From contig OZ241841.1 in assembly GCA_965202665.1 (NCBI GenBank), forward strand, positions 800,001-864,000: a stretch of 64,000 nucleotides of DNA. Direction: 5' to 3'. Under the pieces are notes generated by a model, which worked only from the letters and a program-made list of their open reading frames with translations, searched no databases and had not been told where the DNA came from. Positions 1,059-50,524 of this stretch are shown here, in pieces; positions within the stretch are counted from its first letter, which is position 1, and each line of letters begins with the position of its first letter. Source of the DNA: Candidatus Spongiisociaceae bacterium (GTDB lineage: Bacteria > Actinomycetota > Acidimicrobiia > Spongiisociales > Spongiisociaceae). Made by a program: the position numbers and the translations under genes.

Positions 1059-1517
1059 ATGCAAGTAGCCATCGGGGCGGACCATGCCGGCGTTTCACTA
1101 AAAAGCTTCCTAGTGGAACATCTGGAGGGACTGGGTTATCAGGTGGCCGACCTGGGAACCCATTCCGAGCAACCGGTGGACTACCCGGATTCGGCGGCGG
1201 CGGTGGGGGAGGCGGTGCGCTCCGGGGCGGCGGAGCGGGGCATCGCCGTGTGCGGGTCGGGAGCGGGGACGGCCATCGCCGCCAACAAACTGCCCGGTAT
1301 CCGGGCGGCGGTGGCCCACGACCACTACACCGCCCATCAGATGGTGGAACACGACGATGTCAACCTGCTGTGCCTGGGGGCCAGGGTGGTGGGCCAAAGC
1401 TTGGCGGCCGAGCTGGCCGAAACGTTCCTGACCGCCGTATTCTCCGGCGAAGAACGCCACCTGCGCCGCCTGCAAAAAATCCACGCCCTGGAAAAAACGA
1501 AACCCGTTGCCGACTAA
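1059..1517 (+). CDS. rpiB: Ribose-5-phosphate isomerase B
   Basis: IGADHAG, DYPD, CGSGAG, ANKLPGIRAA, RHLRR motifs; GGAGG RBS upstream. Confidence 0.95.
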   Translation: MQVAIGADHAGVSLKSFLVEHLEGLGYQVADLGTHSEQPVDYPDSAAAVGEAVRSGAAERGIAVCGSGAGTAIAANKLPGIRAAVAHDHYTAHQMVEHDDVNLLCLGARVVGQSLAAELAETFLTAVFSGEERHLRRLQKIHALEKTKPVAD

Positions 1518-1869
1518 TCAACCTCCGGCCGTATCAGGCAAAGCAAATCGAAAAGGGCGTTATCTACCTTGACTCTGTCCGACGCTGAAAGGCGGCCCAA
1601 GGTTGTTACGTAACGGTTCTGGTTGACGGAACGGATCTGCTCGCACTGCAGGTAGCTGGTTTCCTCGAGCCCGTTTTCCTCGCTTGGCTCCACCTCAATA
1701 TACGAGTCTAAATCGCGGGGCGTAGTCGTAAAGGGCGCCACAACCACATTGGGAACATCCAGCCCGGCGGGGGACCCAGAACCAAAGCTGGGCGGTAACT
1801 AGCGGGGTCCGCCGGGTACTCCGGGTCCCTCGTAACAAAATCCACCAACCCTATTTCGTTGACCGGCAT
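1514..1869 (-). pseudogene. mazF: MazF/PemK toxin copy 3, frameshifted
   Basis: Close DNA match to 2945-3295 but with a 9-bp insertion and a 4-bp deletion near 1760; N- and C-terminal halves lie in different frames. Confidence 0.75.
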
Positions 1870-2276
1870 CCGGCGAAGCAAATCGCGAATGGTGTTATCT
1901 ACCTTGACTCTGTCCGACGCTGAAAGGTAGCCCAAGACGTTGATGTGAGGGTCCTTGTTAACGGAGCGAATCTGCTCGCACTGCAGGTAGCTGATTTCCT
2001 TAAGGCCGTTCTCCTTGTTTGGTTCCACTTCAACATACGAGCGGAGGTCGCGGGGCGTTGTCGTAAAGGGGCCCACAATCACGTTGGGACCCGCTGGCCC
2101 TCTCAGCGGGGGACCCAGGACCAAAGCTGGGCGGAGATCAGCAGGTTCCGCCGGGTACTCCGGACCAAAATCCACCGATAATATTACATTGGTGATCATA
2201 GCTCGCCACGTTAGCAAGCAACCCTTGCCAAACCCCCTGGACCAAAATCCACCAACCATATTTCGTTGACCGGCAT
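1870..2276 (-). pseudogene. mazF: MazF/PemK toxin copy 2, interrupted by a 77-bp insertion and fused in frame to copy 3
   Basis: ATG at 2276 (MPVNEIWLVDFGP) stops inside the insertion; alternative ATG at 2199; RPALVL, PFTT and QCEQIRSV kept; no stop before the copy 3 ATG. Confidence 0.7.
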
Positions 2277-2319
2277 ATCGCTATTCCTGCGACAATGCTT
2301 CGGCTACAAATACCTTTCC

Positions 2320-2850
2320 CTATTCCCGTTCGGGGCCAACCTCTCCCGGGGCGGCGTCCTGCGACATTACCTTGGCTACCAAATCCTTCCATTCATACGG
2401 ATCTACGTACCAAGGGTTCGGTTTTCTCCATTCCAACACAGCTCCGGCCGACCATCCATATCCAAACTGCTCCGTTGCTAAAGCCTCTACCGCTCTGGCT
2501 ACTGCCCTGTAGGCCCGGACGGCTCGGAGGGCCAGCTCCGGGTTCCCTATAATTTCGGCTATCTCATCGAAGCCCGCCAAGGCCTTTTGGAGGGGACCCA
2601 AATCGTAGATGACATACCCGCCCAAATCGCCTTGGGACTCCGCCGTCTGGTTGAATTCAGCCGCCGCCCGGCGAACTTCGTCCAGATCTAAACTCCGGGC
2701 CGCGTCGCGGGCCGACGGGAAGTCGAAGGCTTTGATGGCCGCCAGGACCGCCTCGGCGAGTTCGGCCCCTTCCTCCTCACCGCCCAGCTCCCGTAGCAGG
2801 TTGTGGACATCCGCCACCTGTTGCTCGCGACTCTTCATCAAGGGAAGCAT
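2320..2850 (-). CDS. Hypothetical 176-aa protein, candidate antitoxin/partner of MazF (copy A)
   Basis: AAAGGAG RBS; directly upstream of mazF; near-identical to 3339-3869. Confidence 0.7.
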   Translation of the reverse strand: MLPLMKSREQQVADVHNLLRELGGEEEGAELAEAVLAAIKAFDFPSARDAARSLDLDEVRRAAAEFNQTAESQGDLGGYVIYDLGPLQKALAGFDEIAEIIGNPELALRAVRAYRAVARAVEALATEQFGYGWSAGAVLEWRKPNPWYVDPYEWKDLVAKVMSQDAAPGEVGPERE

Positions 2851-2944
2851 AATACGCTCCTTTCGTCGTTGCGATCTCGTCGAGCGGATTCGCCGGGATT
2901 GGCGCCGCCCCCGTTTCCAACATCAAAACTTTTGGGGGAGACAA

Positions 2945-3295
2945 CTAATCAACTCCCGGCCGCCTCAGGCAAAGCAAATCGAGAATTGCTTTATCCACCT
3001 TGACTCTGTCCGACGCTGAAAGGCGGCCCAAGGTTGTTACGTAACGGTTCTGGTTGACGGAGCGGATCTGCTCGCACTGCAGGTAGCTGATTTCCTCAAG
3101 CCCGTTTTCCTCGCTTGGCTCCACCTCAATATACGAGTCCAAGTCGCGGGGCGTAGTCGTAAAGGGCGCCACAACCACGTTGGGAACATCCACCCAACCC
3201 GGCCGGGGGCCAAGAACCAAAGCTGGGCGGTAACCAGCGGGTTCCGCCGGGTACCCCGGATCAAAATCCACCAACCAGATTTCGTTGACCGGCAT
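2945..3295 (-). CDS. mazF: MazF/PemK-family endoribonuclease toxin (intact copy 1)
   Basis: EIWLVDF...RPALVL...VVAPFTT...NGL...SYLQCEQIRSV...LGRL; catalytic Arg and Thr present; 116 aa. Confidence 0.9.
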   Translation of the reverse strand: MPVNEIWLVDFDPGYPAEPAGYRPALVLGPRPGWVDVPNVVVAPFTTTPRDLDSYIEVEPSEENGLEEISYLQCEQIRSVNQNRYVTTLGRLSASDRVKVDKAILDLLCLRRPGVD

Positions 3296-3338
3296 ATCGC
3301 TATTCCTGCGACAATGCTTCGGCTACAAATACCTTTCC

Positions 3339-3869
3339 CTATTCCCGTTCGGGGCCAACCTCTCCCGGGGCGGCGTCCTGCGACATTACCTTGGCTACCA
3401 AATCCTTCCATTCATACGGATCTACGTACCAAGGGTTCGGTTTTCTCCATTCCAACACAGCTCCGGCCGACCATTTATATCCAAACTGCTCCGTTGCTAA
3501 AGCCTCTACTTCTATGGCTACTGCGCTGTAGGCCCGGACGGCTCGGAGGGCCAGCTCCGGGTTCCCTATGATCTCGGCTATCTCATCGAAGCCCGCCAAG
3601 GCCTTTTGGAGGGGACCCAAATCGTAGATGACATACCCGCCCAAATCGCCTTGGGACTCCGCCGTCTGGTTGAATTCAGCCGCCGCCCGGCGTACTTCGT
3701 CCAGATCGAATCTCTCGGCCGCGTCGCGGGCCGACGGGAAGTCGAAGGCTTTGATGGCCGCCAGGACCGCCTCGGCGAGTTCGGCCCCTTCCTCCTCACC
3801 GCCCAGCTCCCGTAGCAGGTTGTGGACATCCGCCACCTGTTGCTCGCGACTCTTCATCAAGGGAAGCAT
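3339..3869 (-). CDS. Hypothetical 176-aa protein, candidate antitoxin/partner of MazF (copy B)
   Basis: AAAGGAG RBS; ends 43 bp before the mazF ATG; acidic and probably helical. Confidence 0.7.
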   Translation of the reverse strand: MLPLMKSREQQVADVHNLLRELGGEEEGAELAEAVLAAIKAFDFPSARDAAERFDLDEVRRAAAEFNQTAESQGDLGGYVIYDLGPLQKALAGFDEIAEIIGNPELALRAVRAYSAVAIEVEALATEQFGYKWSAGAVLEWRKPNPWYVDPYEWKDLVAKVMSQDAAPGEVGPERE

Positions 3870-3997
3870 AATACGCTCCTTTCGTCGTTGCGGTCTCGTC
3901 GAGCGGGTTCGCCGGGATTGGCGCCGCCCCTGCTTCCAACATACAAAACTTTGGGGGAGACAACTAGGGGGTTGTTTTTTGACGACGGAGCGGGAGC

Positions 3998-4067
3998 CCG
4001 GCCCGAGGGCGACTGCTCCGGAGGGCGGCGAAAGGGGGTAGATTTGGGGCGTTCGGGAGGAGAAGCC
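3998..4067 (+). repeat. 70-bp direct repeat, copy 1
   Basis: ccggcccgagggcgactgctccggagggcggcgaaagggggtagatttggggcgttcgggaggagaagcc; 4 mismatches to 4908-4977. Confidence 0.9.
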
Positions 4068-4341
4068 CGCAATGTTCTAATCGTAGAACAGTAGGCGGAG
4101 GGGCGGCAGGTCGTAAACATCCGCCCGCTGCCACCCCCCCCCCCGTCCGCTACCCGGCGGGAATCCCGCCCCTCGGACCCGGCGGATGGTCGTCATCCCC
4201 CTGGATTCGGCGACTCGGCGGGATGATGTCGCAATCCCCTATCGGAGTAAAGGAATCCCTCCGGCCTGGACGGGCGGGCGGGTTATCCTCCCACCGCCGT
4301 TTGTCCTGCGACCGAACCGAACCCCGGCGGGAATCCGGGAA

Positions 4342-4650
4342 TCATCCCCCGGCGGGATGACCGCCGCCAAGTCCTGCGACCCGCCGCCGTTCGTCATTCG
4401 TGGATTCCGAACCGCCCGCCCGGTCGGTCGCCGTCATCCCAAACAGGCTACGCAGTTCGTCCCGAACCGCCGCCTGCGTCTCCGCCAACTCGGCGGGCGA
4501 CAGGTTAGCCGCCGCCCCTTCCCGGATAGCCGCCCATCCGTCCGTAGTCGGATAATGGCCGCCCACTTCCTGGATGATGGCATTTAATGCCGCCGCCAGT
4601 TCGGCGGGCGACATCCCGCAGTTCGGGTCGTTAATCGGGTTCGTCATCAT
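4342..4650 (-). CDS. Hypothetical protein
   Basis: 102-aa ORF with purine-rich RBS (AAAGGGGGA); internal SPAELA motif occurs twice. Confidence 0.55.
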   Translation of the reverse strand: MMTNPINDPNCGMSPAELAAALNAIIQEVGGHYPTTDGWAAIREGAAANLSPAELAETQAAVRDELRSLFGMTATDRAGGSESTNDERRRVAGLGGGHPAGG

Positions 4651-4907
4651 TCCCCCTTTTCCTAGTTATCGGAATACCCTACCCCCGAATTAAACAGTAT
4701 GGTGGATGGTCTAACAAAGCCTGATTTTCAGACACCTCTGATGATTACTTACAACCACAGGCTGTACCGTGGAATAGATAAGCACCAGGCACCAGAGCAG
4801 ACAGCACAGGATCGTCAGTGTCAGTATCAGGGTCATACGCGGGATCTGCTTTGGCCTGCTTTGTTGTGTGGTTCTGGTTCAGGTCCCGCCCTGCTGTCCT
4901 GCTGGAT

Positions 4908-4977
4908 CCGGCCCGGGGGCGCCTGCTCCGGAGGGTGGCGAAAGGGGGTAGATTTGGGGCGTTCGGGAGGAGGAGCC
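4908..4977 (+). repeat. 70-bp direct repeat, copy 2 (includes dodecin RBS)
   Basis: 910-bp offset from copy 1; ends in GGAGGAG just before the TTG start at 4979. Confidence 0.9.
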
Positions 4978-4978
4978 T

Positions 4979-5197
4979 TTGCAAATAACCAAGACGGTTC
5001 GGATAGCCGGAGAGTCGGAGACCTCCATCGAAGCGGCCATCGGGTCGGTGCTGACGCGGGCCGCCGCCTCGTTGCGGGATGTGCAAACCTATGAGGTGGT
5101 GCGGGTGGGGGGCCGCTTGGGCGACGGCGGGACCTGGGTGCACGAAGTCACCTGCGATGTGACCTTCGGCGTCAAAGAGCCCGCCGCCTACGGGTGA
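4979..5197 (+). CDS. Dodecin-family protein
   Basis: 72 aa; GESETSIEAAI...RAAASLR...EV...V.F pattern. Confidence 0.8.
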   Translation: MQITKTVRIAGESETSIEAAIGSVLTRAAASLRDVQTYEVVRVGGRLGDGGTWVHEVTCDVTFGVKEPAAYG

Positions 5198-6165
5198 GCC
5201 CCGAACCGGTCCCCCTCGGCTCGGGCATCCACCGGGTGACGCTGCAACTGCCCATAATCAGCCCGCCCGCCGTCAACTGCTACATCATTGAAGGCGGCGA
5301 CGGGCTGACGGTGATCGACTGCGGGGTGGAACAACGGGAACGTCTGGACGAACTGGGCTCCGCCCTGTCCGCCATCGCGGGCGGGGAAGCGCCGGTGGAA
5401 CGGTTGGCGTGCACCCACCTGCATTTCGACCATATGGGAGGGGCCGCCTCTTTTGTGCGCCAACACCAGTCGGAGTTCATCATGCACCGCACCGCCGCCG
5501 GCCTGACGGACGAGTACAACGACTGGTCGATCATTATGGAACGGATGTTGCGCTGGGCCCGTCGCAGCGGGGCCCCTCCCGACGACTTGGAGGCGATGGC
5601 GGACTGGCCCCGCCCCGACTACGCGGGCCGGGCCATCGCCCCCACCCGCCCGGTGGAGGACGGCGACCGCATCCCCCTCGGCGGGGACCGGAACTTGGAG
5701 GTCATCCACACCCCCGGCCATCATCTCACCCACATTTGCCTGCGGGACAGCCGCACCGGCCGCCTGTTCAGCGGAGACCACATCCTGCCCCGCATCACCC
5801 CTTTCGTGGCCCATCAGGACGACCGGGACGCGCTGGCCGAATACCTGGATTCCCTGGAACGGATCGAACTGCTGGACCCGGGAACCACCCTGCCCGCCCA
5901 TGGCGACACCGTGGAGCAGGGCCGGGCCCGGGCCCGCCAGATAACCCTCCACCATCAAAGGCGGCTGGGGGCCATGGCCCAGGTAACCCGCGCCCGCCCC
6001 GCCACCGCCTGGGAGGTGATGACCGAAACTTTCCGCCCCGACCTGACCGTCCAGCAACGGTTTCTGGCCTTTCAAGAAACGTTGGCCCATTTGGAGCATC
6101 TGGTCGCCCAAGGCCGCCTGCGCCGGGCGGAAGAAGAAGGCCTGCTGCGCTACGGCCCGCCGTAA
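5194..6165 (+). CDS. MBL-fold metallo-hydrolase
   Basis: THLHFDHMGG, TPGH, SGDH, PAHG motifs. Confidence 0.9.
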   Translation: MSPEPVPLGSGIHRVTLQLPIISPPAVNCYIIEGGDGLTVIDCGVEQRERLDELGSALSAIAGGEAPVERLACTHLHFDHMGGAASFVRQHQSEFIMHRTAAGLTDEYNDWSIIMERMLRWARRSGAPPDDLEAMADWPRPDYAGRAIAPTRPVEDGDRIPLGGDRNLEVIHTPGHHLTHICLRDSRTGRLFSGDHILPRITPFVAHQDDRDALAEYLDSLERIELLDPGTTLPAHGDTVEQGRARARQITLHHQRRLGAMAQVTRARPATAWEVMTETFRPDLTVQQRFLAFQETLAHLEHLVAQGRLRRAEEEGLLRYGPP

Positions 6166-47283: not shown

Positions 47284-48204
47284 TTAGAGGCGGGTCATTA
47301 GGTGTTGGACGGACATTAAATCCAAGTGGCCGCCGCCGCCGTTTTTGAAGAGCGTGATGCGGTCGGGGCCGGTGCGGCCCTGCGCGCCCGCGGCCAGTTG
47401 GTAGTGGTCGGCCAAAATGCGTTCGGGTGTTATCACTCCGGAGGCCAGCGGGATGGCCAACTCTCCGGTTTCCAACGCCGAATCCCGGGAGTCTACGAAA
47501 ATGTCCGCTTGGGCGACGGCCCGGTCGTCCGCCTCCCGCATGTGCGGCAGGTAGGAACCGACCAGATCCAGATGGGTTCCGGGGGCCACCCACCCGCCCC
47601 TTATCAGCGGCTCCACCGTCATCGTGGCGCAACTGATGACGTCGGCGGCCCGCACCGCCGGTTGCAGATCCCCGGCGACGGCGATGTCGGCGGGCAGGTT
47701 TCCGTCCGAAAGTTCATCGACCAACCGTTGCGCCCGGGCCGGGGTGCGATTCCAGACGGCCACCCGCTCCAACATTGGGCGGACGGACAGATGAGCCCTG
47801 ATCAGATGAGGGGCCATGGCCCCCGCTCCCACCATCAGCAGAAAGCGGCTGTCCTCCCGGGCCAGAAAACGGGCGCCCAGGGCGGAATCGCAGGCGGTTT
47901 TGAACCAGGTGAGGGCGTTGCCGATGATGACCGCCTCCTCCTGCCCGGTGTCCGGGTTGAACACCGCGTAAAGGGTGTGGACGGTGGGCAAATCCCGGTT
48001 GCCGGGGAAGATGGTGGCCAGTTTGATCCCCAACCCGGATCCGGGCGCAAACCCGGCCCGGGCCAGCAGGCCGTTGCCCCGCCCGTCCCCCGTATAAACA
48101 TCCCCCACCGCCGCCGCCGCCGACCGGTGCCGCTCCTCCAAAAAGTCAATCAGCGGCCCATAATCCAACAGCCCCATAGCCTCCTCATGCGTTATCACCC
48201 TCAT
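47284..48204 (-). CDS. Ornithine cyclodeaminase / mu-crystallin family protein
   Basis: IKLATIFPGN, VGAGAMA, WNRT, GTHLDLVGS, LFKNGG. Confidence 0.88.
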   Translation of the reverse strand: MRVITHEEAMGLLDYGPLIDFLEERHRSAAAAVGDVYTGDGRGNGLLARAGFAPGSGLGIKLATIFPGNRDLPTVHTLYAVFNPDTGQEEAVIIGNALTWFKTACDSALGARFLAREDSRFLLMVGAGAMAPHLIRAHLSVRPMLERVAVWNRTPARAQRLVDELSDGNLPADIAVAGDLQPAVRAADVISCATMTVEPLIRGGWVAPGTHLDLVGSYLPHMREADDRAVAQADIFVDSRDSALETGELAIPLASGVITPERILADHYQLAAGAQGRTGPDRITLFKNGGGGHLDLMSVQHLMTRL

Positions 48205-48222
48205 CAGCTACCACTTACCAAA

Positions 48223-49551
48223 TCAGTCTTTCATTTCTTTTAATTTGCTAGCCAAATTTGTTGACGCAATAAAGGCTTTTTGCTTACCAATTTGTTCCAG
48301 TTCTATAAGATCTATTCCACCTAAATACAGTAAATCATTACGGGCGGTGTTAAGAGAAACATCATGTCTATTAGCGTGACCGCGAAAGGTATACAGCCTG
48401 TCAGGATTTCTAAGAGCATCACTAAGCAATGCACGCTGGCGATAGTTCAATTCTGGAATATCACCTATTATACTGTCGACTTCTTGATTTCTCTTCAATA
48501 CGCTATCTACGTAAGTGGATAATCCTTGGAAAGCCTTGTCTAATACGTTTAGCTGATGAATCAAAAAATATGTCAGGTCATTATCGTTGGTCTCCGAATA
48601 TAAAAAGGAGTCACGATACTGTCCAGGTGCTTTATGCAACACGGCCGAAATTGAAACATATTCCATTAACCAATAGTCCCCCCGTAAGGCAGACCAATAA
48701 AAAAGTCCACGAGCCGTTCTACCATTGCCATCAGCAAATGGATGAATATAAGCTAACCAAAAATGTAACAATATGGAATGTAACAAAGGATGGGTAAATC
48801 CACCATTAGCACCGTTGGCAAAATCACATAACCTTTTTATCCGTCCCATAATCTCCTCTGCCCGCGGCGGCATGAACATTATTTTGTCTAACTCATCGAC
48901 AACTTTTGCTCTGATATCTCCTGGCCTTTGAAATCGGCCACAATCATCTGGATTTTCTAAAGTACCTTCTGTTAATTTTGCATGTATTTCACAAATCAAA
49001 TCTGGCGATAAATCTCTATTTGTTATCTCTCGTATATAGCGTATAGCATTATAATTGTTAGAAATCATCCTCTCAGAAATATCACGAGGTTTTTGTCCGC
49101 TACGAAGCATTTCTTTCGCTCTGACGCGTGTGGTAGCCGCACCTTCCAGTTGTGAAGAGGAAATGGCCTCCTCAATTATTCCTCTTACTCGATAGCTACC
49201 TCTTGTGGTAGGATTCAAAGTAGCGATTGGTGAAGCAAGCCTGCCTGTCGCCCGCATGTCAAGATTATGAAGGTGCTCCAAAACCGGATCAACCAAGCTG
49301 TAACGAAAGTAATCACCTTTTGTATTTAAAATAGGAGATGAACGAGCTATAGTATTCCTATTTAAAGCCAACCCTGCCCACCACTCATCTGTCGTAAGCC
49401 CAGCGGGCGGCGGGCGACGTCGAACCTCTTCCCAATGGAGATACCGACCATCCACAGTCGGACCTACATCTAAAACCCGATTCAAATGAATAGGGTCAAT
49501 CTTGATTAGAACATCATTAATCGCCGGAGGGTCTTCGGGCAACCGAGTCAT
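48223..49551 (-). CDS. Fic-family protein with C-terminal HTH-like region (low GC)
   Basis: Canonical HPFADGNGRTAR; SSQLEG; TARNDL; ATG at 49551. Confidence 0.92.
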   Translation of the reverse strand: MTRLPEDPPAINDVLIKIDPIHLNRVLDVGPTVDGRYLHWEEVRRRPPPAGLTTDEWWAGLALNRNTIARSSPILNTKGDYFRYSLVDPVLEHLHNLDMRATGRLASPIATLNPTTRGSYRVRGIIEEAISSSQLEGAATTRVRAKEMLRSGQKPRDISERMISNNYNAIRYIREITNRDLSPDLICEIHAKLTEGTLENPDDCGRFQRPGDIRAKVVDELDKIMFMPPRAEEIMGRIKRLCDFANGANGGFTHPLLHSILLHFWLAYIHPFADGNGRTARGLFYWSALRGDYWLMEYVSISAVLHKAPGQYRDSFLYSETNDNDLTYFLIHQLNVLDKAFQGLSTYVDSVLKRNQEVDSIIGDIPELNYRQRALLSDALRNPDRLYTFRGHANRHDVSLNTARNDLLYLGGIDLIELEQIGKQKAFIASTNLASKLKEMKD

Positions 49552-49618
49552 TATACCTACCTTTCCATTCCATGAGGTCAGCACTCACCAGACATCCAAT
49601 CCTGCCTGGCACTGCGCC

Positions 49619-49648
49619 AGTATACGATCCGACCATCCTAAATGTCAA
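49619..49648 (-). promoter_or_regulatory. Near-consensus sigma-70 promoter of fic: TTGACA-N18-TATACT
   Basis: tgtcaa 49643-49648, agtata 49619-49624. Confidence 0.7.
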
Positions 49649-49650
49649 AT

Positions 49651-49827
49651 CGCCCCCACCCCCAACTGTCAATTTACTGTCAACAACTGTCAAAATGACA
49701 CTTGGCCGCCCCAACCCCCACCCCCAACTGTCAATTAACTGTCAACAACTGTCAAAATGACACTTGATCGCCCCAAACCCCCACCCCAACTATCAATTAA
49801 CTGTCAACAACTGTCAAAATGACACTT
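49651..49827. repeat. Three tandem 62-bp units, each with three ACTGTCAA sub-repeats
   Basis: ccccaactgtcaattaactgtcaacaactgtcaaaatgacactt three times (aact at 49664, 49726, 49788). Confidence 0.95.
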
Positions 49828-50524
49828 AGGGGGCGGCGGGTGGGAGGTCGAAGGCTAAGACCAGCTCGGCGGAGACGCGGGATTGGCCGTTGGCCCCGGC
49901 TCTCAAGCGGGGGGTTACCACGCGGGCGGCGTCGACTAGGGCGAACCCCATTTCCAGCAGGGTTTGCGTATGCCAGGAGGCTACATTTTGACGTCGGCCC
50001 CTCCGGATGTGGTCGGAGATGTTCAACAGCAACCGCCCGCCCGCCCGCAGCACCCGGGCCGTCTCCCGCCAGGCCCGTTCGTGAAACTCCCGATATTGGG
50101 GTCCCCAGTGCAACACCCCCGAATTGTCCTCCGACAGATTGCGTCCCAGGTCGTGGGTGTAACTGCGACGTAACGACCCGTCCCGGGCGTTGTGATGGTC
50201 GGCCAGCCGGTTTCCGTAGGTCGGCGAGGTGACCACCGCGTCGAACCACCCTTCATCAAAGGGCAGAGCCAAGGCGTTGCCCACCCGCGTGTCGGGGTGG
50301 AGGCGCGCCCATTCCGGTTCCAACTCCACCCCCCAGGTGCGCATCTCCCACTCCACCATCCCCGGCAGTTCGTGCACCCGGCCCACTCCGGCGAAAGGAT
50401 CCAGCACCCGCCGGTGCTCCGGCCCCAGCAACCCGGCCAGCGCGGGCAGGATAGCGGATGAGAACACCGCCGGATGGGCCACCCCCGTCTCATAGAGTTT
50501 TTTCGCCGGGGGCCCTCCGCTCAT
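49826..50524 (-). CDS. Small orphan DNA methyltransferase (N4C/N6A-type)
   Basis: LDPFAGVG followed by VVTSPTY; RVLRAGG. Confidence 0.75.
   Translation of the reverse strand: MSGGPPAKKLYETGVAHPAVFSSAILPALAGLLGPEHRRVLDPFAGVGRVHELPGMVEWEMRTWGVELEPEWARLHPDTRVGNALALPFDEGWFDAVVTSPTYGNRLADHHNARDGSLRRSYTHDLGRNLSEDNSGVLHWGPQYREFHERAWRETARVLRAGGRLLLNISDHIRRGRRQNVASWHTQTLLEMGFALVDAARVVTPRLRAGANGQSRVSAELVLAFDLPPAAP

What the first reader, a model, noticed from the sequence alone, without database searches (positions are those of the whole stretch)
1514..3966. Expanding array of MazF toxins with an atypical 176-aa partner
Seen on the minus strand: partner B, mazF1, partner A, mazF2, mazF3, with a 1019-bp duplication offset. 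All three toxin copies keep RPALVL and PFTT. Known: usual MazE/PemI antitoxins are about 70-100 aa with AbrB or RHH folds. This partner is about twice that size and acidic, and I see no DNA-binding motif in it. Inference: a new antitoxin or sensor class caught during duplication and divergence, possibly anti-phage.
Basis: partly seen in the sequence, partly recalled or inferred. Interest (0 to 1): 0.72.

Follow-up and report, generated by a model that had tools for sequence, protein, structure and literature searches.

The report
Stretched MazE antitoxin in decaying array
A sponge-associated bacterium carries a duplicated toxin-antitoxin locus in which only one of three MazF toxin copies is intact, and the odd 176-residue partner is most likely an ordinary small MazE antitoxin that was stretched by internal duplications and lost its predicted DNA-binding strand; it probably still neutralises the toxin, but this is untested.

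Summary
The duplication is real: a 714-bp repeat at 96.9% identity, offset 1019, with junctions also seen in other samples. It is not three working toxins. mazF1 is intact. mazF2 has no stop codon and reads into mazF3, which is frameshifted, and broken at a different place in other strains. A 21-codon mazF stub lies between.

The 176-aa partner has no Pfam, PADLOC or PDB-fold match and was found in one sponge-symbiont Acidimicrobiia genus only. It is probably not a new class. All 37 nearest toxin relatives examined have a 78-aa ribbon-helix-helix (RHH) MazE7-like antitoxin gene upstream. Both ends of the partner match that antitoxin in order. The 43-nt spacer before mazF reads as a relic of the antitoxin's C-terminus, with the toxin ATG in the ancestral overlap position. 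The extra length includes a 28-residue internal repeat. The beta-ribbon and the terminal Asp are lost.

Partner and toxin appear to have diverged together, but a sister genome keeps the partner with no mazF. Whether it neutralises MazF is open (about 55%). No anti-phage evidence was found. Verdict: new variant of a known kind, of modest interest.

The parts
3339..3869 (-). Partner B, 176 aa: lengthened MazE7-like antitoxin derivative. Residues 13-41 resemble the RHH helices, 52-76 and 80-104 form a 28-residue internal repeat, 119-162 resemble the toxin-binding helices
   Evidence: AGGAG-type ribosome site upstream; dN/dS 0.29 vs the G001 orthologue
3296..3338 (-). 43-nt spacer: relic of the ancestral antitoxin C-terminus, in frame with the partner and cut off by stops; a 72-nt-offset degenerate copy of the partner's last helix
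   Evidence: toxin ATG at nucleotide 2 of partner-frame codon 192, the register found in 88 of 92 canonical loci; PSSM score reached by 7-9 of 22,485 genome ATG contexts; 25 of 32 nt identical to the upstream copy, 0 of 1000 shuffles as good
2945..3295 (-). mazF1, intact 116-aa PemK/MazF toxin; keeps E18, R23, T46, R78, R84
   Evidence: (72.5 bits vs cut-off 23.1)
2320..2850 (-). Partner A, second copy, 96% identical to B (10 codons differ, 7 of them non-synonymous)
2277..2319 (-). Second copy of the spacer relic
   Evidence: same translation and register as the first copy
2211..2276 (-). mazF stub: 14 mazF-like codons at the end of the 714-bp repeat, stop after 21 codons, out of frame with mazF2. 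A similar N-terminal duplication is in frame in P0072
1870..2199 (-). mazF2, 110 codons, 68% identical to mazF1; no stop, reads in frame into mazF3
1514..1869 (-). mazF3, frameshifted at codon 38 in this strain. Other strains are in frame there but broken further on (P0096 also lacks the catalytic Arg). Its stop overlaps the stop of the convergent rpiB
2235..2947 (.). Copy 2 of the 714-bp direct repeat
3254..3966 (.). Copy 1 of the 714-bp direct repeat

Best explanation
This is a duplicated, partly decayed mazEF locus whose 176-aa partner most likely descends from the 78-aa RHH MazE7-type antitoxin of the toxin's sister clade and probably still inhibits the one intact toxin, MazF1. Shown: one intact mazF, two partner copies, a stop-less mazF2 running into a broken mazF3, a 28-residue internal repeat in the partner, and a spacer that preserves the ancestral antitoxin-toxin overlap register. 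Inferred history: short tandem duplications inside the antitoxin gene added the 28-residue repeat and a second copy of the last helix. A nonsense codon then cut off the original C-terminus and uncoupled the toxin start. The N-terminal beta-ribbon decayed, so operator binding was probably lost. Later whole-cassette duplications added toxin copies that are being inactivated while both partner copies stay intact. Inferred mechanism: residues ~119-165 would lie across the MazF dimer groove, as the C-terminal half of alpha2 and alpha3 of MazE-mt9 do, and block RNA access. With two partner genes per intact toxin and no autorepression, dosage would keep the toxin off.
For: Sister-clade toxins have the RHH antitoxin gene directly upstream in 37 of 37 toxin-fetched loci, 4 of them partial or frameshifted. 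The window MazF clade is one group (98/98) next to that clade. hhalign of 56 partner rows vs 96 antitoxin rows: residues 119-162 match antitoxin 33-69, E 6e-4; 0/100 column, 1/100 block and 0/100 reversed-block shuffles reach the score. Residues 13-39 match antitoxin 10-35, E 0.003, 0/40 shuffles. A partner C-terminal HMM puts 88 of 96 antitoxins above the 99th percentile of 12,514 genome windows, against 1 of 96 when reversed; the N-terminal HMM gives 59 of 96 against 1 of 96. Spacer relic and ATG register. The antitoxin family's best PDB sequence hit is MazE7, 6a6x, E 0.023. No canonical antitoxin match was found in G000, and its only PemK genes are in this array. 17 of 27 MazF sequences of this clade share a contig length with a partner, including the most divergent pair P0005/P0080 at 61%/69% identity to the window proteins.
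Against: Each homology signal is weak alone: hhalign probability 4-60%, and the window's own partner was equalled or beaten by 153 of 4,639 genome windows in a PSSM test. An HMM of the antitoxin does not find the partner in a genome search. The Asp invariant in 96 of 96 antitoxins is absent from the partner in register; in MazE-mt9, D74 gives key contacts and deleting the last helix abolishes binding (the equivalence of that Asp is my inference). G001 keeps the partner with no mazF found, with dN/dS 0.29-0.35 between the two genomes. None of 6 contig lengths of G001-type partners of 5 kb or more (clusters 6-7 and the G001 cluster), and only 1 of 7 for cluster 5, matches a listed MazF (listings incomplete). 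Some MazF alleles have lost the catalytic Arg or the adjacent Pro (P0063, P0065), which suggests relaxed selection on toxicity.
Confidence: 0.55

Rival explanations
1. The partner descends from MazE but has been repurposed and no longer binds MazF. MazF1 is weak or silent and is being lost, and the pair stays together only because it sits in one duplicated cassette.
For: Standalone partner in G001, divergent from dodecin and convergent with another operon, with no PemK match in that 91%-complete single-contig genome; dN/dS about 0.3; beta-ribbon, terminal Asp and translational overlap lost; long branch (0.76) to the window MazF clade and many changes at positions conserved in relatives; broken or substituted toxin copies.
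Against: mazF1 keeps E18, R23, T46, R78 and R84, and 12 of 13 clade sequences keep R23. The best-conserved antitoxin-like part of the partner is the toxin-binding end, not the DNA-binding end. Pairwise identities of 16 inferred partner-toxin pairs correlate (Spearman 0.69; kin are not independent).
Confidence: 0.3
2. The partner is an unrelated genus-specific protein, either a new antitoxin class or a bystander next to which a mazF landed.
For: No hit in Pfam, PADLOC, PDB folds, the Atlas or 1.84 billion representatives beyond its own small family; individual similarities to the RHH antitoxin are in the twilight zone.
Against: Two colinear segments and the spacer register each point to the toxin's own sister-clade antitoxin, and outgroup antitoxins L018-L021 score lower.
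Confidence: 0.08
3. The locus is an anti-phage abortive-infection module in which the inserted repeat lets the partner sense a phage protein and release MazF, by analogy with ChAD-extended antitoxins of TAC systems.
For: Clustered non-synonymous differences between copies A and B at residues 52-54 and 115-132 and allele variety in the same regions; copy-number variation between samples; a precedent for antitoxin extensions used in phage sensing (abstract of 10.1101/2024.02.24.581848).
Against: No PADLOC hit for 6 proteins tested; neighbours are rpiB, dodecin and an MBL-fold hydrolase; no SecB-like or other third gene seen; no relative in viral contigs or plasmids; A-versus-B dN/dS is 0.69, not above 1, on few sites.
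Confidence: 0.07

Closest known systems
MazEF-mt9 (MazE7/MazF7) of Mycobacterium tuberculosis, PDB 6A6X; bioRxiv 10.1101/432989 (abstract, introduction and results in parts 1-2 of 4 read)
   Same: Best PDB sequence hit of the 78-aa antitoxin family from which the partner is inferred to descend (E 0.023). Layout of one beta-strand and three helices, with toxin contacts in the C-terminal half of alpha2 and in alpha3, which is the region best retained in the partner.
   Different: The partner is more than twice as long, has no beta-ribbon, has an internal repeat, lacks the terminal Asp in register, does not overlap the toxin start, and occurs in two copies.
Uncharacterised 78-aa RHH antitoxin + 112-aa MazF operon of Acidimicrobiia (loci L007-L017, L030-L139)
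   Same: Toxin 41-51% identical to MazF1 and sister group in the tree; partner ends and spacer match this antitoxin; RHH_1 Pfam hit in 9 of 11 members at E<=1, best E 7e-4.
   Different: A compact, overlapping, two-gene operon with intact ribbon and invariant Asp75; none of the 37 loci checked has a long partner.
MazF9 (MazF-mt1) and Bacillus/Staphylococcus-type MazF endoribonucleases
   Same: Best PDB sequence hits of MazF1 (E 3e-7 to 5e-6); conserved Arg and Thr.
   Different: Low identity; the cleavage specificity of MazF1 is unknown.
Toxin-antitoxin-chaperone (TAC) systems with ChAD-extended antitoxins (10.1101/2024.02.24.581848, abstract and outline only)
   Same: An antitoxin carrying extra sequence beyond its neutralising part.
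   Different: No chaperone gene seen, different toxin family, internal helical repeat; analogy only.

Membership tests
PemK/MazF toxin | PF02452 score above the curated cut-off | tested here: met
   72.5, 56.9 and 40.6 bits vs 23.1 for mazF1, mazF2 and the mazF3 3' part
PemK/MazF toxin | Catalytic Arg and Thr (roles recalled from E. coli and B. subtilis MazF, not from a call) | tested here: met
   R23 and T46 in mazF1, aligned to solved MazF9
PemK/MazF toxin | Intact single-domain reading frame | tested here: inconclusive
   Met for mazF1; not met for mazF2 (no stop) or mazF3 (frameshift)
PemK/MazF toxin | Endoribonuclease activity and toxicity | not testable with these tools
   needs expression and an RNA cleavage assay
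MazE7-type RHH antitoxin | Gene directly upstream of mazF on the same strand | tested here: met
   43 nt upstream of mazF1; not so in G001
MazE7-type RHH antitoxin | Sequence homology to the RHH helices and to the toxin-binding helices | tested here: met
   weak but colinear and above shuffle and reversal controls
MazE7-type RHH antitoxin | N-terminal beta-ribbon for operator binding | tested here: not met
   the alignment starts at antitoxin position 10 and the conserved ribbon residues are not matched; no strand in two low-confidence models; no RHH Pfam hit
MazE7-type RHH antitoxin | Length about 70-85 aa, with the stop overlapping the toxin start | tested here: not met
   176 aa and a 43-nt gap; the overlap survives only as an untranslated relic
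MazE7-type RHH antitoxin | Terminal Asp, invariant in the 78-aa family | tested here: not met
   96 of 96 in the family; Pro or Ser in register in the 171-176-aa partners, and the 158-162-aa forms end before it
MazE7-type RHH antitoxin | Binds and neutralises the MazF dimer | not testable with these tools
Known anti-phage defence system | Match to PADLOC models | tested here: not met
   0 families for 6 proteins at E<=1
Known anti-phage defence system | Located among defence or mobile genes | tested here: not met
   flanks are rpiB, dodecin and an MBL hydrolase, syntenic with G001

The most novel reading that the evidence does not exclude
A working type II antitoxin rebuilt by internal tandem duplication into a 176-aa helical-repeat protein that has given up DNA binding, neutralises MazF through a substitute C-terminal helix, and uses the inserted, fast-varying repeat as a new input surface for a ligand or a phage protein. 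It would be useful enough to be kept after the toxin is lost. That would be a traceable case of a new protein family arising from an antitoxin.
Probability: 0.12. Interest if true: 0.65.

Novelty: new variant of a known kind. Interest (0 to 1): 0.4.

Why it matters
It shows step by step how a small antitoxin can turn into an unrecognisable orphan protein. The relic spacer, the internal repeat and a toxin-less sister genome are all visible. Because near relatives carry the ancestral 78-aa form, two questions can be tested directly: can an antitoxin neutralise MazF without its conserved terminal Asp and without autoregulation, and what does an orphaned antitoxin go on to do? The scope is narrow, one genus of uncultured sponge symbionts, and nothing suggests a new defence mechanism.

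Tried and rejected

AlphaFold2 monomer models: mean pLDDT 51 and 48, all helical. ESM Atlas: best score 0.83 for the whole protein, nothing usable for the C-terminal part of P0052.

Searches for distant partner homologues. The profile against 1.84 billion representatives returned 6 hits: 3 relatives or fragments and 3 long repetitive proteins judged chance. JGI metagenome contigs: none. GTDB contigs: one locus. Family: 2 of 29 genomes, counting G000. Class: G000 plus 3 short weak hits inside long ORFs among 401 genomes, not followed up. Viral contigs and plasmids: none.

Idea that the partner is two whole antitoxins fused head to tail: rejected. Residues 78-118 vs the antitoxin N-half were equalled by 19 of 40 shuffles, and 44-77 vs the C-half by 13 of 40.

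Idea of an intact single-chain MazF2-MazF3 fusion: not found. The cluster holds only 163-aa and 212-aa broken products, and a search of longer proteins found none, which is weak evidence. X8 is in frame at 1758, but 1606 was not covered, so that allele stays open.

Idea that an acidic MazF1 could not bind an acidic partner: dropped, because relatives with canonical antitoxins are also acidic (mean -3.4, range -8 to +3, against -7).

The 109-of-115 co-occurrence count is circular, since 80 loci were fetched with the antitoxin; it was replaced.

No RNA holder was listed. No Rfam match at gathering threshold and no sigma-70-type promoter match. X12 covered the region too thinly to use.

Literature searches that found no description of this locus or of a lengthened RHH MazE: (listings only; the library lacks most subscription papers).
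Full report
Setting. The window lies in a 2.77-Mb single-contig genome, G000. Its one same-genus relative, G001, is the record whose title gives the family Candidatus Spongiisociaceae. Of the 17 runs that hold the stretch or part of it, those with a habitat label are marine or sponge metagenomes. The array sits between rpiB (1059-1517, +) and a dodecin and MBL-hydrolase pair (4979-6165, +), an order shared with G001.

What is in the sequence. On the minus strand: partner B (3869-3339), a 43-nt spacer, mazF1 (3295-2945), partner A (2850-2320), the same spacer, a 21-codon mazF stub (2276-2211), mazF2 (ATG 2199) and mazF3 (1869-1514). A 714-bp repeat at 96.9% identity and offset 1019 covers leader, partner, spacer and the first 14 toxin codons. 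mazF1 is intact and keeps E18, R23 and T46. mazF2 has no stop and joins the mazF3 start in frame. mazF3 has a 9-nt insertion and a 4-nt deletion relative to mazF1, so it is frameshifted at codon 38. These three are the only PF02452 matches in the genome.

The duplication and the breaks are real. Of 8 runs laid, X1 and X3 match the window across the frameshift. X4, X5 and X8 are in frame at 1758, but X4 and X5 have a 1-nt deletion at 1606; X8 was not covered there. X11 and X16 join the end of rpiB directly to the end of partner A, so they lack mazF2 and mazF3. A second complete genome encodes a 212-aa read-through whose mazF3 half is frameshifted late and has Cys in place of the catalytic Arg (P0096). 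The collapsed partner unitig has about twice the depth of single-copy unitigs in X1, X5 and X8 (98 vs 54-57, 75 vs 41-45, 23 vs 8-15), supporting evidence only. Eight contig lengths carry two partner sequences. The locus is a duplication-and-decay site: partners stay intact and extra toxin copies break.

The partner family is tiny. It comprises seven clusters with 70 members (15 of the 30 members of cluster 1 were listed). It was found in 2 of 29 family genomes, both in one genus, with nothing convincing in the other genomes of a 401-genome class sample, in viral contigs or in plasmids. It is a real gene: dN/dS against G001 is 0.29-0.35, against 0.18-0.27 for three neighbours, though dS is about twice theirs. 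Pfam, PADLOC, Foldseek and Atlas searches were blank, and both AlphaFold2 models are low-confidence and all helical.

Where it comes from. The nearest outside relatives of MazF1 (41-51% identical) have a 78-aa antitoxin gene directly upstream in 37 of 37 loci fetched by the toxin, 4 of them partial or frameshifted. Nine of 11 members hit Pfam RHH_1 weakly, and the best PDB sequence hit is MazE7, 6a6x, at E 0.023. The window MazF clade is a supported group (98/98) next to this clade (112 columns, many forks unresolved, midpoint root). I noticed the resemblance of the partner to this antitoxin by eye and then tested it in three ways.

(1) C-terminus. Residues 119-162 align with antitoxin 33-69 (hhalign E 6e-4; 0/100, 1/100 and 0/100 in three shuffle types). 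A partner HMM of residues 100-176 ranks 88 of 96 antitoxins above the 99th percentile of 12,514 genome windows, against 1 of 96 when they are reversed.

(2) N-terminus. Residues 13-39 align with antitoxin 10-35, the RHH helices (E 0.003, 0/40 shuffles), and 59 of 96 rank above the 99th percentile. The middle gives 7 of 96 and contains a 28-residue internal repeat, 52-76 vs 80-104 (E 3e-4, 0/100 shuffles).

(3) Spacer. In 88 of 92 canonical loci the toxin ATG starts at nucleotide 2 of the antitoxin's Asp75 codon. Read on in the partner's frame, the window spacer resembles antitoxin positions 62-74, and the toxin ATG falls at nucleotide 2 of the codon equivalent to 75. Only 7-9 of 22,485 ATG contexts of the genome score as well, the window's own included. 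The spacer is also a 72-nt-offset copy of the partner's last helix, 25 of 32 nt identical.

Against this, single-sequence signals are marginal. Window partner B was equalled or beaten by 153 of 4,639 genome windows in a PSSM test, while P0052 beat all of them. The antitoxin HMM finds nothing in G000 or G001. Reversed antitoxins also score somewhat on the last 40 residues, so composition contributes. The antitoxin sequences are related to each other and count as one test. I put common descent at about 85%.

Does it still neutralise MazF? For: G000 has an intact toxin and no other antitoxin of this family was found. The retained similarity is strongest in the part that corresponds to the toxin-binding helices; in MazE-mt9 the contacts lie in the C-terminal half of alpha2 and in alpha3 (10.1101/432989, parts 1-2 of 4 read). 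Seventeen of 27 MazF sequences of this clade (17 of 23 on contigs of 5 kb or more) share a contig length with a partner, including the most divergent pair, and pairwise identities of 16 such pairs correlate at 0.69. Shared length implies one contig but does not show adjacency, only the longest contig per protein is given, and kin are not independent.

Against: the family's invariant Asp75, which I infer corresponds to the D74 that the paper finds most important, is gone, although its invariance may partly reflect the overlapping start codon. G001 keeps the partner as a standalone gene, convergent with an rpiB operon, with no PemK match in the genome (91% complete). Several toxin alleles have lost conserved residues. 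Solo toxins and antitoxins are common in general, over 50% in the largest families (PMC2701414, passages read). The complex prediction could not be run. I estimate 55% for a working antitoxin, 30% for a repurposed descendant, 8% for an unrelated protein and 7% for a phage-sensing module.

Comparison and novelty. It likely works like a MazEF-mt9-type pair. It is not a member of the RHH MazE family in the strict sense, because the ribbon, the length, the overlap and the terminal Asp tests fail. Six paper searches (listings only) showed no description of this locus or of such a lengthened antitoxin. PMC7472061 was read in passages and added nothing specific. Supplements were not consulted; the interaction table S1 of the MazEF-mt9 preprint would bear on the residue mapping.

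Verdict: observation partly confirmed, first reading partly supported, new variant of a known kind, interest 0.4.

Noticed in passing
window 3998-4067 and 4908-4977: A 70-bp direct repeat (94%) of the dodecin leader flanks a 910-bp segment with a 102-aa ORF (4650-4342, minus). The segment is absent in X11 (joint 4026 to 4937) and apparently in X5, X8 and X16 (loose ends that read as the dodecin start). A 62%-identical paralogue of the ORF lies at G000 1,137,645-1,137,812.
   Followed up: partly
L004 9423-10055 (G001): In place of the mazF genes, G001 has two small Cys-rich ORFs (126 and 78 aa) that resemble each other, downstream of rpiB on the opposite strand to the partner; no Pfam hit for either.
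   Followed up: partly
L004 6231-7632 (G001): The 3' part of the MBL-hydrolase gene is duplicated, with a 128-aa ORF without Pfam match between the copies: the same duplicate-and-insert pattern as in the window.
   Followed up: partly
window 1514-1517: The stop codons of rpiB and mazF3 overlap on opposite strands. In X11 and X16 the last codons of rpiB and of partner A are replaced at the joint, which would fit the 171-aa partner variants.
   Followed up: partly
P0072 (related lineage): A MazF with an in-frame duplication of its first ~25 residues, similar to the window's stub plus mazF2, which are out of frame here.
   Followed up: partly
L007-L017, L030-L139: A widespread, apparently uncharacterised Acidimicrobiia mazEF clade in which the toxin ATG lies inside the antitoxin's invariant Asp-Gly codons (88 of 92 loci).
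   Followed up: partly
window 48001-50000: A low-GC stretch (45-50% against about 65%), possibly recently acquired DNA.
   Followed up: no
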